10,146 nt of DNA, from positions 1 through 10,146 of the IMG/VR virus record IMGVR_UViG_2541047850_000007; one strand, given 5' to 3'. How positions within the stretch are numbered: position 1 is the first letter of the stretch; each line of letters begins with the position of its first letter. Shown here piece by piece: positions 6,001 through 10,146 of this stretch. The DNA comes from a virus (Duplodnaviria; Heunggongvirae; Uroviricota; Caudoviricetes). Made by a program: the position numbers.

Positions 6001-9000
6001 CAGGTAAGCCAGTGGACCGGACAGAACGGAGAAACGCGGCAGGGCTGGCAGGTTATCGCAGACAGCGTAATCAGTGCCCGCGCGGCACGTCCAGGCGGGA
6101 ACAGACGCAAAACCACAGGCACACAGGGTAATCAGCCACCAGCGGGAGGCGATGACCCTTACGGTGATGATATTTCGTTCTGAGGGGGTGACGATGGTAC
6201 ATGACCGCATAGCGGAGGAACTGGAGGCGAAAGGCTTTTACCGGAGGGCGGCGGCGCGATGGGGTGAAGTCATGCAGCTGGTGGAGACAGACAAGGAACG
6301 GCATCACATCACGATGCGACGGCTGGAATGTTCAAGGAAGGCACAGAGGGCACCGGAGCCGCCGGATAATTTCGGAGACCTGAAAAAGGCAGTCGATCGC
6401 ACTTATGCCGAAATGGGTATAGATGGTGCTGGTGATGAAATATGGCGCAATTACCAGGACAGCTAATCAAACAGCCGGAGAAATCCGGCTTTTTTTGCAC
6501 CAGTTGAAACGGTATGGCGCATTACCGGGTTTTCGTCACGGTCAGGCATAGTTACTATCTGAAACAAACAGACACAACAGAGGAAAAAAACAATGCCGAT
6601 GAAATTTGATGAGATATTAAAACAGCGTGATAAATACCATGCTGACAACATGGAGACGATGAGCATCAATGATTACCGCGCATTCCTGGAGACGGGCGCA
6701 CTGATTGAAAAGGATCAGCATGGTTTTGTGAGATGTGCTCTATCCGGTGAAATGCTGGCGGTAAATCCTGAACAGATAGATGCATTGATAGAATTTCTGA
6801 AAGAGATCAGAGACTGAGCCAGCACACAGCACACATAGCCGGAGCAATCCGGCTTTTTTGCGCCCAAAAAAAGCCCGATAAGGTCAGAGGGTTCTTATCG
6901 GGCTTTTGCATATGAGGTTTTTGGATGCACTGGCGTTCGTGATCGGGATAATCATTTCATAATTTGCAACATAACTCAATATCATTGCATAAAATGCAAT
7001 TCTGATTATAATCAGGACTGGATAAACATCCAGTTATGATTTTTTTAGTCGAAGAGGAATTTCTTACTATGGCTGAAGAGAAAAAAGGCGGTGTTTCGGT
7101 GTACATAAGCCCCGAAATCGTGGAGGTGCTCAAGCAGCGCCACAAAAAAAACTATGAAGCTGGCGTTGCGGCTGGACTGGATCCGCTGATGACGCCGGAG
7201 CCGTCGATAGGTTCACTTGTACGCTCTTATTTACTTGCGGCGCTTGGGATGCATAAAAATTATGGGGGTGAATAATGGCAGGCAAAGCAACGGCACTTAA
7301 CACTAACCAGCTTTTCATGTACCTGAATCGCGGGGATATTGCGGATTTTAAATTCAGCCCTCTGTTTACCACGCTGTTTTTCCCGAACGTGGCGACATTC
7401 AGCACGCAAAACATCATGCTGGATACCCTGGACATTGAAGAAGTCACCATGTCGGCGTTTTGTTCGCCTATGGTGGGTAGCCAGGTTCAGCGCGATAAAG
7501 GGTACGAAACCAGCACAATCAAACCTGGCTACATGAAGCCAAAGCACGAAATCGATCCAACGAAAACCATCATGCGCATGGCTGGAGAAGATCCGGCACA
7601 GCTTAACGACCCTACCTATCGCCGTATGCGCCTGATTACTGGCAACATGCGCCGCCAGATAAACGCCATTAAGGCACGCGTGGAATGGCTGGCGGTGAAT
7701 GCGGTAACGACCGGAAAAAACATCATTGAGGGCGAAGGCATAGAACGCTATGAAATCGACTGGAAAATACCGGAAAACTGCATCATAGAGCAGGCCAAGG
7801 GTAAAAAATGGTCCGAGCAGGATAAAGACATGCACGACCCAATCTATGACATCGAGCTTTATGCTGATCAGGCTGGTTGCCCCGCAAACGTCATGATTAT
7901 GGGCGCTGAGGTATGGCGCACATTACGCAGCTTTAAAAAATTCCGTGAGCTGTACGATCTTTCCCGTGGTTCAGAATCCGCCGCCGAACTGGCCTGTAAA
8001 AACCTGGGCGAAGTGGTGAGCTTTAAAGGCTATCTTGGTGATCTGGCCCTTATCGTCTATTCCGGCAAATACACTGACAGCGATGGTACCGAAAAATATT
8101 TCCTTGAGCCTGATTTGCTGGTCCTGGGTAACACCAACAATAAAGGGCTGGTGGCCTATGGTGCGATTATGGAACAGGAAGCGGTAAGAACGGGCGCAAC
8201 GCAAAACATGTTTTACCCGAAAAACTGGATTGAAGACGGCGATCCGGCGATTGAGTACGTGCAGACACACAGCGCACCGCAGCCTGTTCCGGCAGATATT
8301 CGCAAATTTGTTACCGTCAAAATTGGTTAACGGTGGATTCTATGAACACTCCATACATTGAGTTATTTGCAGGCAGTCAGCAGGTATCAACGACGCTGGT
8401 ACATTTTGCCGCTGATGCTGGCGTTATTCAGGAATTTACCCCGCTGATGCTGGCGGACAATGGCGAGTTTAAGCCGTGGGATGGTCAGGAATCTGGCAAG
8501 GCTGTTTATCTGACCTCGTACCCCGTTGACACGTCGACGCAGAAATCAGCACAGTGCTATAAGACGGGGATATTCAATATCGCCGCCGTTAACTGGCCTG
8601 AGAGCGTCGACACCGATGCGAAAAAATGCGCCGCCTTTGCGGGTTCTGGCGTATCCGTTCAGCCGCTGGCCCGATAAGCAGGGGGAACGATGGCAACGAA
8701 TGAAAGCATCATGGCGCTACCGCTGGCGAGTAAATTTAAAGCCGAAGCGCGGGCAATGGCTGACAGAGGGTTATCAACCTACGAGGCCGTATATCAACTC
8801 AACAAACTGGAAGAACAGGACAAGCCGCGCGCTGATGCGATTATGGCGCTTCATGAACATAACGACTATCAGCCGCTGTTACGTGCAATGGCAAACGTGC
8901 CATGTATTAGCGTCGATAATGCTCGTGAAATCCTGAACATGACCATAGAGCAGGAGCGCCCAAAGGTTGCACCAGAGCTTACCGCAGCCTTTGAAAACTT

Positions 9001-10146
9001 TATGGACATGCACAGCCCGCAAGCCGTATCAGCTGGCATGGCGTACGATGGCAGAAACCAGGGCGATGACGGCGACATCGATCGCATACTGAAAACCATC
9101 TGAGACAAGGCCGGAGAAATCCGGCTTTTTTTTACGGGTCCTTTCCGGCATATGGACCCGTTACGGGGCGGCGACCTCGCGGTTTTTCGCTATTTATGAG
9201 CCTTTTCAGGGGGGTGGTGGTGGTTTTGTTGTTTGCTCTATCTTTATGAATAAAAAGGGAAAGATGCAAGCAATACACCAACCTGAAGCAGTAATTAAGT
9301 TGGTGTATTAATGAAATCGCACCTGATGAACAAAAAAAACATGGCTAAAAGCTGCCGTGTAAGTGCGACAGCGTTCGACAAGTGGGGAGTAACTCCCGTT
9401 GAGCGTAAAGGCCGTGAGGCGTTTTATGATGTTGCCAGCGTGATAGACAATAGGGTTAACAATGCAATTAGCCAGCTTACAAACGACAAAGGCGATATTG
9501 ACGATGATGAACTATTACGAGTCAGGATCAGATTACTGACAGCGCAGGCGGAGGCGCAGGAGCTTAAAAACGAGCGCGAACGAGGCGACGTTATTGATAC
9601 AGGGTTTTGCCTGTACGCGCTTTCAAAGCTGGCGAGCCAGATTTCTTCAATCATGGACAGCATCCCGCTTACTATGCAAAGGAGCTTTCCACACATTACC
9701 CCAGCCATGCTGGATGGGCTTAAAAGGGAAGTGGTTAAAGCCTGTAATGCCAGTGCCAGAGTTGCCGACAACCTCCCACAGATACTGGCTGATTACTTGA
9801 AAGAAACAACCGGAAACGTACCGGAAAAGTTGCAGCAGAATAAAGATAAGTAACGTAGTACGCTATGACTGAATCCGAAATACTGCGATTAATCCGCCGC
9901 GTCTCTGGAATCAGCCAGCAGGCTGACGAACAGACCACGCAGCCGGACAGCGTGACAGCCGAAAACTATGCGCGTGTGGTTGCTGAGGTGATGCGCCGTG
10001 ATGGTATCCAGCTTAATGATGTGGATATGCGCGACATACGGATCCGCGTTCTTGAAATGCTGGCCTACAATCGCCGCGTTGAGATGTATCGGGAGAAAGA
10101 AAAAATAACGTACCACTGGAAGAAGCCGGAGCGGTTACGGCGGTAA

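What the first reader, a model, noticed from the sequence alone, without database searches (positions are those of the whole stretch)
8690..9103. Unknown 137-aa acidic protein ending the head operon next to cos
It occupies the position after the capsid and decoration genes, immediately before the terminator and cos. No lambda homolog was recognised by eye. It could be a packaging accessory, a scaffold, or a helper-interference factor.
Basis: inference. Interest (0 to 1): 0.5.

Follow-up and report, generated by a model that had tools for sequence, protein, structure and literature searches.

The report
Satellite-encoded Nu3-like capsid scaffolding protein
The 137-residue acidic protein is a stand-alone relative of the scaffolding (Nu3) tail of the lambda-type head protease, so this E. 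coli phage satellite carries a coat protein, a decoration protein and a likely assembly chaperone whose purpose has not been explained.

Summary
The ORF at 8690-9103 is real. It is 137 aa with pI 4.8, has a good ribosome-binding site, is under purifying selection, and is intact in about 590 of 5426 complete E. coli genomes. It is the last gene of a coat-decoration-X operon. A strong terminator starts 4 nt after its stop codon, and a lambda-type cosQ/cosN lies about 30-75 nt further on.

The window is a classical EcCICFT073-type phage-inducible chromosomal island (PICI). The ORF is the ortholog of c1501 (127/137 identical), which the literature lists without a function.

It is not an orphan. 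A profile built only from satellite copies matches the C-terminal, non-protease part of lambdoid S49 head-maturation proteases (gpC/Nu3 type), including the one in CFT073's own prophage. That part is in turn homologous to the lambda gpC/Nu3 C-terminus. The protein has two helical Nu3-type repeats, a flexible tail and an invariant C-terminal helix.

The best reading is an internal scaffolding protein for the satellite's own coat protein. Homology is shown; function is inferred. Published data show the module is dispensable for transfer by lambda and phi80. NCBI's "head-tail connector" name is not supported. I class it as a new member of a known kind, of moderate interest.

The parts
7069..7275 (+). 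Small ORF (68 aa from the PGAP start; 79 aa from the ATG at 7036) whose stop overlaps the coat-gene start. It is the c1498 ortholog, the first gene of the module, and its function is unknown.
   Evidence: (phrog_3255, unknown function); it was replaced together with c1499-c1501 in PMC10530653
7275..8330 (+). Satellite major capsid protein, lambda gpE family (c1499 ortholog).
   Evidence: Pfam PF03864 E 1.4e-49; 43% identical to lambda gpE; dN/dS 0.10
8333..8677 (+). Head decoration protein, lambda gpD family (c1500 ortholog; PGAP start at 8342).
   Evidence: Pfam PF02924 E 3.7e-18; dN/dS 0.10
8680..8686 (+). Shine-Dalgarno sequence AGGGGGA of the target ORF.
   Evidence: sequence
8690..9103 (+). 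Target ORF: 137-aa acidic Nu3-like scaffolding protein homolog (c1501 ortholog).
8702..8809 (+). Residues 5-40: degenerate first Nu3-type helical repeat, with the motif IMxLPLAxKF...A.AMA conserved in both satellite lineages.
   Evidence: hhalign alignment covering residues 5-122; internal repeat score exceeded by 0.95% of shuffles; alignment A4
8825..8956 (+). Residues 46-89: second Nu3-type repeat (DAIMAL..YQPLLRAMANVPCI.V..A..IL). This is the best-conserved match to the repeats of phage gpC.
8990..9019 (+). Residues 101-110: FENFMDMHSP tail motif, shared with the C-terminal tail of prophage S49 peptidases (FEHFMANHSP).
9068..9100 (+). Residues 127-137: predicted amphipathic C-terminal helix. 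I(D/E)RILKTI is invariant between satellite lineages that are otherwise 40% identical. Inferred coat-binding tip.
9107..9133 (+). Intrinsic terminator (hairpin AAGGCCGGAGAAATCCGGCTTT plus T-run) that ends the capsid operon.
9131..9199 (+). Lambda-type cos: cosQ-like block at 9131-9148 and cosN with the 12-nt cohesive end at 9166-9177. The cosB side has diverged.
9311..9853 (+). Full-length Nu1-type small terminase (context, not part of the capsid operon).
   Evidence: Pfam PF07471 E 9e-23; 34% identical to lambda Nu1 over its full length

Best explanation
The ORF encodes an internal capsid scaffolding (assembly-chaperone) protein of the lambda Nu3 type that has become a stand-alone gene in a phage satellite. 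In lambda and its relatives the head protease gpC (S49 family) carries a C-terminal non-protease region, which is also expressed separately as Nu3. This region interacts with coat protein gpE and portal gpB, drives procapsid assembly, and is then degraded. The satellite protein keeps two copies of the roughly 40-residue helical repeat of that region. It also keeps the flexible acidic tail and a short C-terminal amphipathic helix, but it has no protease domain. It is co-transcribed with the satellite's own gpE-like coat and gpD-like decoration genes. I infer three steps. The repeat domain oligomerises, and possibly contacts the helper's portal, gpC or Nu3. The C-terminal helix docks on the satellite coat protein and nucleates its polymerisation into a procapsid built on helper portal. 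The protein is then removed, probably by the helper's gpC protease, before the satellite's cos DNA is packaged by helper TerL with satellite TerS or Rpp. What is shown: the gene is real, it is under selection, it co-occurs with the coat gene, and it is homologous to the gpC/Nu3 C-terminal region. What is inferred: coat binding, the assembly role, and removal.
For: PHROGs places residues 45-119 on positions 494-567 of the 583-position 'head maturation protease' profile phrog_53 (E 7.3e-10). A profile built only from 18 satellite copies hits C-terminal fragments of prophage S49 peptidases at E 1.3e-8 to 1e-6, even with the database size set to 1.8e9. The same profile hits residues 416-492 of the 501-aa S49 peptidase of CFT073's own lambdoid prophage (E 4.4e-5). 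hhalign of the satellite family against that phage family gives probability 97.1%, E 6.8e-11 over residues 5-122. The phage family against the lambda gpC C-terminus gives 97.5%, E 5.9e-12. In an exhaustive HMMER search of 1.84 billion representatives, the only hits were near-identical copies and fragments, the second satellite lineage (P0040), and one such phage fragment, P0041. P0041 lies immediately upstream of HDPD and Phage_cap_E genes, which is the gpC/Nu3 position. The single tblastn hit among 50,697 phages is likewise the C-terminal end of the gene upstream of D and E. The protein is acidic and similar in size to the scaffold region. AlphaFold2 gives an all-helical repeat domain (pLDDT >90 for residues 11-80), a disordered stretch at 109-126 and a C-terminal helix at 127-136. 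A low-confidence model of the phage homolog has the same tail layout. The gene is found in 596 genomes and the satellite-type coat gene in 598. The order small ORF, coat, decoration, X is kept in a second lineage. dN/dS is 0.29 against 0.10 for coat and decoration. Between lineages the coat is 84% and the decoration 85% identical, but X is only about 40% identical, with an invariant C-terminal IxRILKTI. Fast evolution with a fixed tip is what I would expect of a scaffold (my own knowledge). Lambda coat plus scaffold alone self-assemble into shells (PMC9295703), and Nu3 interacts with E, B and C (PMC3224144).
Against: There is no direct functional evidence. Direct similarity to lambda gpC itself is weak (BLASTP not significant; hhalign P 0.0016, probability 16%), so the link to lambda Nu3 is transitive. 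In EcCICFT073, deleting c1499 or c1500 changed neither interference nor transfer, and DNA packaged by lambda was phage-sized (PMC6092414). Replacing c1498-c1501 with cas9 still gave transducing particles with phi80 (PMC10530653). The module is therefore not needed for mobilisation in the laboratory. The island lacks portal and protease, so any shell it builds depends on helper parts whose compatibility is untested. The extreme C-terminus differs from that of helper gpC. Structure searches found no informative match.
Confidence: 0.6

Rival explanations
1. It is a mimic of the helper's Nu3/gpC tail that acts on helper proteins rather than on the satellite's own coat. It could compete with or hetero-oligomerise with helper Nu3/gpC, portal or coat. 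The effect would be to recruit helper protease and portal into satellite shells, or to disturb helper head assembly. SaPI1 CpmB works this way: it competes with the 80alpha scaffold through a homologous C-terminus.
For: The closest relatives are the gpC tails of resident lambdoid prophages, and the FExFMxxHSP tail motif is shared. CpmB is a precedent for a satellite scaffold that copies the helper scaffold's coat-binding end (PMC5644958). Lambda Nu3 self-associates and binds C and B.
Against: Among the individually cloned EcCICFT073 genes, only c1503 reduced lambda plaque formation (PMC6739421). Packaged DNA was phage-sized. The last 8-10 residues, the likely coat-binding tip, differ from those of helper gpC. 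The second satellite lineage lacks the shared tail motif. The gene co-occurs strictly with a satellite coat gene.
Confidence: 0.2
2. It is a gpFI-like DNA-packaging accessory protein that links terminase to the prohead. This is suggested by its position after the coat gene, its size (137 vs 132 aa), its acidity and its proximity to cos.
For: It occupies a position like that of lambda FI, which follows E. Size and pI are similar.
Against: There is no Pfam Packaging_FI hit, BLASTP against lambda FI gives E 0.43, and the satellite profile scores FI at noise level. The same sequence has significant similarity to the gpC/Nu3 tail instead.
Confidence: 0.05
3. It is a head-tail connector or adaptor protein, as many NCBI records name it.
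For: The names 'phage head-tail connector protein' and 'head-tail preconnector protein from prophage' appear in the source databases.
Confidence: 0.04
4. It is a decaying remnant of a captured phage gpC gene and has no function.
For: It corresponds to only the tail of a larger phage gene, and the module is dispensable in laboratory transfer assays.
Against: It has its own start codon and ribosome-binding site. Its length is a constant 137 or 134 aa in about 590 genomes and two lineages. dN/dS is 0.29, and the N-terminal and C-terminal motifs are invariant.
Confidence: 0.05

Closest known systems
Lambda gpNu3 / C-terminal region of the gpC head-maturation protease (S49 family), and its longer three-repeat versions in E. 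coli lambdoid prophages
   Same: The sequences are homologous: the repeat IMxLxEAxGxExxAxxLAxxPGMxVxxARxIL, the acidic tail and the FExFMxxHSP motif are shared with the prophage versions. Both are small, acidic, helical and partly disordered. Both are linked to gpE-type coat and gpD-type decoration genes.
   Different: It is a stand-alone gene, not nested in-frame in a protease gene. The gene order is coat, decoration, X, whereas in phages it is C/Nu3, D, E. It has two repeats, one of them degenerate. Its C-terminal tip is different (IDRILKTI). It is encoded by a satellite that has no portal or protease of its own.
SaPI1 CpmB (satellite-encoded internal scaffold, S. aureus)
   Same: Both are small helical internal scaffold-like proteins encoded by a satellite, related at the tail to the helper's scaffold, with a C-terminal helix ending in a basic-hydrophobic motif (RIIK vs RILK).
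   Different: CpmB acts on the helper's coat protein to make small capsids. SaPI1 has no coat gene, and there is no sequence homology with the present protein. The four-residue motif resemblance could be chance.
Capsid-forming PICIs (cf-PICI, EcCIEDL933)
   Same: Both are E. coli PICIs with the same int-alpA-pri backbone that encode their own capsid proteins.
   Different: cf-PICIs carry a complete HK97-type set (portal, protease, coat, connectors, HNH, TerS, TerL). This island has only coat, decoration, a scaffold-like protein and TerS, all of lambda type.
SaPIbov5 Ccm (satellite coat-protein homolog)
   Same: Both are cos-packaged satellites that carry a homolog of the helper's coat protein.
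   Different: Ccm works without a dedicated satellite scaffold and redirects a prolate capsid to an isometric one. In EcCICFT073 the coat homolog has no phenotype so far.

Membership tests
gpC/Nu3-type scaffold domain (C-terminal region of lambdoid S49 head protease) | Significant sequence or profile similarity to the non-protease C-terminal region | tested here: met
gpC/Nu3-type scaffold domain (C-terminal region of lambdoid S49 head protease) | Presence of the roughly 40-residue helical repeat IM.L.EA.G.E..A..LA..PGM.V..AR.IL | tested here: met
   Repeat 2 (residues 46-89) aligns in register with the phage repeats. Repeat 1 (residues 5-40) is degenerate.
gpC/Nu3-type scaffold domain (C-terminal region of lambdoid S49 head protease) | Encoded next to gpE-type coat and gpD-type decoration genes | tested here: met
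   Same operon. The order is rearranged relative to phages.
gpC/Nu3-type scaffold domain (C-terminal region of lambdoid S49 head protease) | Nested in-frame within, or fused to, an S49 protease gene | tested here: not met
   There is no Peptidase_S49 domain in the ORF or anywhere in the window. The ORF is a stand-alone gene with its own ribosome-binding site.
gpC/Nu3-type scaffold domain (C-terminal region of lambdoid S49 head protease) | Binds coat and portal, catalyses procapsid assembly, and is absent from mature heads | not testable with these tools
   This needs co-expression with electron microscopy, interaction assays, and proteomics of procapsids against mature particles.
Head-tail connector / adaptor (gp6-like; the NCBI name) | Match to a connector or adaptor family profile or fold | tested here: not met
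Lambda gpFI packaging accessory | Sequence similarity to FI (Pfam Packaging_FI) | tested here: not met
Satellite size-redirecting scaffold (CpmB-like mode of action) | Redirects the helper coat protein into small capsids by competing with the helper scaffold | tested here: inconclusive
   The tail motif is shared with helper gpC, but the tip differs. Published packaging of EcCICFT073 DNA by lambda is phage-sized. The native helper has not been examined for capsid size.
Capsid-forming PICI | Own portal, protease, head-tail connectors and large terminase | tested here: not met
   None of these is encoded in the window or in full islands.
Classical Gram-negative PICI (EcCICFT073 type) | int-alpA-pri backbone, about 10-11 kb, cos site, coat homolog, TerS or Rpp | tested here: met
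   The target is 93% identical to c1501, and the supplement lists c1501 as 137 aa with no function.

The most novel reading that the evidence does not exclude
With their natural lambdoid helpers, classical E. coli PICIs of this type use coat, decoration and this scaffold as a minimal 'shell kit'. They build satellite-specific capsids, possibly of a different size or with different stability or immunity properties, on stolen helper portal, protease, large terminase and tails. This would be an intermediate state between capsid-remodelling PICIs and capsid-forming PICIs. It has been missed because the laboratory helpers (lambda, phi80) package the island in their own heads.
Probability: 0.3. Interest if true: 0.7.

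Novelty: new member of a known kind. Interest (0 to 1): 0.42.

Why it matters
Since 2018 the coat and decoration genes of Gram-negative PICIs have had no phenotype, and c1501 has had no annotation. These genes are present in about 11% of complete E. coli genomes and in most reference PICIs. If the third gene is a Nu3-type scaffold, the module becomes a recognisable, potentially self-sufficient shell-forming unit, because lambda coat plus scaffold alone form shells. That gives a concrete experiment to test what the module does. It also corrects a misleading database name ('head-tail connector'). Finally, it shows that a scaffold domain normally fused to a protease can be captured and kept as a separate gene by a satellite.

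Tried and rejected
1. BLASTP against lambda gpC, FI and FII gave nothing significant.
2. A PDB sequence search found no hit.
3. Pfam, NCBIfam and PADLOC scans gave no hit for the target.
5. Two scans of the GTDB species-representative genomes, one with patterns from the satellite alignment and one with a back-translated IDRILKTI-stop pattern, found no relative outside E. coli. All 15 pattern hits were in unrelated taxa and look like chance.
6. I considered that the published 'c1501::tetA' marker had disrupted this gene, which would have made the earlier negative results for the coat and decoration genes uninformative. The primer sequences in the supplement show that tetA was inserted immediately after the c1501 stop codon. 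The ORF is therefore intact, and I dropped the idea.
7. The AlphaFold2 model of the phage homolog P0042 had low confidence (pLDDT 53), so I used it only for its secondary-structure layout.
8. The RILK/RIIK resemblance to the 80alpha scaffold and CpmB C-termini covers only four residues, so I treat it as a lead and not as evidence.
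Full report
**The observation**

The window is a roughly 10-kb unidirectional element. 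It encodes:
- a tyrosine integrase (1-1239);
- an AlpA-like regulator;
- a P4-type primase (3411-5243);
- SSB;
- a PerC-family regulator;
- a lambda gpE-type major capsid protein (7275-8330, PF03864 E 1.4e-49);
- a gpD-type decoration protein (8333-8677, PF02924 E 3.7e-18);
- the ORF in question (8690-9103);
- a Nu1-type small terminase (9311-9853);
- a 93-aa ORF that ends at the window edge.

The ORF encodes 137 aa with pI 4.79. An AGGGGGA ribosome-binding site precedes it. A textbook intrinsic terminator at 9107-9128 starts four bases after its stop codon.

Positions 9131-9148 are identical to the lambda cosQ region. Positions 9166-9199 match the first 34 bases of lambda at 33 of 34, including the cohesive end. 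The cosB side has diverged.

**What the element is**

In a complete E. coli genome the element sits between cspD/yljB and clpS. In other strains close relatives sit next to phoQ and at other sites. It is an EcCICFT073-type classical Gram-negative phage-inducible chromosomal island (PICI).

In CFT073 itself the order is a 68-aa ORF, coat, decoration, a 137-aa ORF, the 144-aa RppA, then a 93-aa ORF. The 137-aa protein there is 127/137 identical to the target. The supplement of the paper that defined these islands lists it as c1501, 137 aa, with the function column empty and orthologs only in PICIs. The gene is therefore known as an ORF but has no assigned function.

**The gene is real and maintained**

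The gene is present in 596 of 5426 complete E. coli genomes, 591 of them at >=80% coverage. The satellite-type coat gene at >=80% identity is present in 598, so the two are inherited together.

| Gene | dN/dS across six islands |
|---|---|
| Coat | 0.10 |
| Decoration | 0.10 |
| Target ORF | 0.29 |
| Small terminase | 0.15 |

A second lineage (P0040, P0043, P0054; 134 aa, about 40% identical) lies in the same small ORF, coat, decoration, X arrangement. Between the two lineages the coat is 84% and the decoration protein 85% identical. The target has diverged much further, yet three parts are conserved: an N-terminal IMxLPLxxKF motif, the central YQxLLxAMxxVPxI block, and an invariant C-terminal I(D/E)RILKTI.

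**What it is related to**

Pfam, NCBIfam, PDB sequence search and PADLOC give nothing. PHROGs does give matches. There is a full-length match to the unannotated family phrog_1999. Residues 45-119 also match positions 494-567 of the 583-position 'head maturation protease' profile phrog_53 (E 7.3e-10). That stretch is the C-terminal, non-catalytic end of the protease.

Two further searches point the same way:
- The only tblastn hit among 50,697 phage records is the C-terminal end of the gene immediately upstream of the decoration and coat genes of Escherichia phage 204576.
- An exhaustive HMMER search of 1.84 billion representatives returned eight proteins. They were near-identical copies and fragments, the second satellite lineage, and P0041. 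P0041 is a contig-truncated C-terminal piece of a gene directly upstream of HDPD and Phage_cap_E genes, which is the gpC/Nu3 position.

A mixed-profile search then retrieved many fragments that sources name 'S49 family peptidase, partial', 'scaffolding protein' or 'capsid assembly protein'.

I avoided circularity by building a profile from the 18 satellite copies alone.
- With the database size set to 1.8e9, it hits the phage fragments at E 1.3e-8 to 1e-6. It aligns residues 49-127 to the last repeat plus the tail of those proteins.
- It hits residues 416-492 of the 501-aa S49 peptidase of the lambdoid prophage at icd in CFT073 (E 4.4e-5).
- hhalign of the satellite family against this phage family gives probability 97.1%, E 6.8e-11 over residues 5-122.
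- The phage family against the lambda gpC C-terminus gives 97.5%, E 5.9e-12.
- The satellite family against lambda directly is weak (P 0.0016), but the alignment is in the same register.

Homology to the gpC/Nu3 C-terminal region is therefore well supported, and for lambda itself it is transitive.

**Anatomy**

The CFT073 prophage protease tail has three repeats of the form IMxxxEAxGRExLAxxLAxxPxMTVExARxIL, followed by an acidic tail containing FEHFMANHSP and a short hydrophobic end. Lambda has one such repeat.

The target has:
- one good repeat (residues 46-89);
- one degenerate repeat (residues 5-40; only 0.95% of shuffles reach its internal alignment score);
- the FENFMDMHSP motif;
- its own tip, DIDRILKTI.

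AlphaFold2 (mean pLDDT 77) predicts a confident all-helical domain for residues 1-90, a helix at 95-107, a disordered stretch at 109-126, and a C-terminal helix at 127-136. That helix is strongly amphipathic. A low-confidence model of the phage homolog has the same tail layout. Fold searches returned only generic three-helix repeat proteins.

**How it most likely works**

In lambda, portal gpB, protease gpC and scaffold Nu3 form the initiator on which gpE polymerises. Nu3 interacts with E, B, C and itself, and is degraded before packaging (PMC3224144). Coat plus scaffold alone self-assemble into shells (PMC9295703).

The satellite encodes its own coat, its own decoration protein and this Nu3-like protein, but no portal, protease or large terminase. 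My best explanation (confidence about 0.6) is that the protein is the scaffold for the satellite's own coat protein. The repeat domain would provide oligomerisation and possibly contact with helper portal or gpC. The invariant C-terminal helix would provide the coat contact. Removal would depend on the helper's protease.

Faster evolution than the coat with a fixed tip, strict co-inheritance with the coat gene, and operon membership all fit this reading. None of it has been shown experimentally.

**What argues against importance or for rivals**

Published data on EcCICFT073 weigh against an essential role:
- Deleting c1499 or c1500 affects neither interference nor transfer.
- DNA packaged by lambda is phage-sized (PMC6092414).
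- Only c1503 (rppA) among the individually cloned genes blocks lambda (PMC6739421).
- An island with c1498-c1501 replaced by cas9 is still transduced by phi80 (PMC10530653).

The module is thus dispensable with laboratory helpers. I checked whether the 'c1501::tetA' marker used in many of these experiments had inactivated the gene. The primers place tetA just after the stop codon, so it had not.

A decoy or recruiter role acting on helper Nu3/gpC, portal or coat remains possible (about 0.2) and is not exclusive of the scaffold role. SaPI1 CpmB is the precedent (PMC5644958). A gpFI-like role has no sequence support.

NCBI's 'phage head-tail connector protein' has no profile or fold support. Sources also call this cluster 'head-tail preconnector protein from prophage'. 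The same legacy label ('head-tail preconnector protein GP5') is carried by a C-terminal fragment of the S49 peptidase (P0075). The name is therefore best read as a distorted echo of the same gpC similarity.

**Novelty and verdict**

The gene and the island are known. Assigning c1501 and its orthologs to the Nu3/gpC scaffold family appears to be new: I found no paper that makes it.

It is a new member of a known protein kind, with three unusual features. It is uncoupled from the protease, it sits after rather than before the D and E homologs, and it is carried by a satellite.

Interest is moderate. The assignment turns an unexplained 'capsid homolog' into a recognisable shell-forming module, and it makes the standing question of what PICI capsid genes do directly testable. 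The available genetics, however, say the module is not needed for mobilisation by lambda or phi80.

Noticed in passing
window 6474-6494, 6838-6858, 9110-9130: Three copies (0-1 mismatch) of the same terminator hairpin, GCCGGAG(A/C)AATCCGGCTTTTT, all on the + strand. They follow the PerC gene, the 74-aa ORF and the capsid operon. None is expected by chance. This suggests that expression of the late half of the island may depend on antitermination or read-through.
   Followed up: partly
window 9311-9853: This island carries a full-length Nu1-type small terminase: 34% identical to lambda Nu1 over all 180 residues, including the part that binds the large subunit in lambda. EcCICFT073 has the 144-aa RppA at the same position, and the two proteins show no detectable similarity. 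Other islands (L004, L010) carry Rpp-sized or HTH proteins there. The TerS/Rpp slot is therefore exchangeable, while the capsid module stays.
   Followed up: partly
window 9131-9310: cosQ and cosN are almost identical to lambda, but the cosB side (after about 9200) is unrelated. This is consistent with a satellite-specific small terminase recognising its own cosB while the helper large terminase cuts a lambda-type cosN.
   Followed up: partly
window 9865-10146: A 93-aa ORF (phrog_1561, unknown function) is 84/93 identical to the ORF downstream of rppA in CFT073. It is conserved downstream of either TerS or Rpp in all islands examined. It has no Pfam, NCBIfam, PDB or PADLOC match.
   Followed up: partly
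window 7036/7069-7275: A small ORF (c1498 ortholog, phrog_3255) has a stop that overlaps the coat-gene start codon. It is always present upstream of the coat gene. Its N-terminal pattern (VSVYISPEIVEVLKQ) looks like a ribbon-helix-helix DNA-binding protein by eye; I did not test this.
   Followed up: no
window 6194-6466: A PerC-family transcriptional activator (Pfam E 3.9e-43) is carried by the island. From my own knowledge, PerC/Pch proteins regulate the LEE virulence island in EPEC/EHEC, so the satellite may influence host virulence gene expression.
   Followed up: no
L002 (CP025907.1, Escherichia phage 204576) 800-3500: The head protease and major capsid genes of this deposited 'complete' phage genome are broken into several frames. 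These are apparent frameshifts: either sequencing errors or a defective prophage.
   Followed up: no
L012 (CFT073 prophage at icd) 4650-6155: The resident lambdoid prophage's S49 protease is 501 aa with three tandem Nu3-type repeats, where lambda has one. Repeat number in this scaffold region therefore varies between one and three among related phages and the satellite.
   Followed up: partly
window 9080-9100 (residues 131-137): The invariant C-terminal RILK resembles the RIIK 'helix-and-hook' motif that docks the 80alpha scaffold and SaPI1 CpmB onto their coat protein. The match is only four residues and may be coincidence.
   Followed up: no
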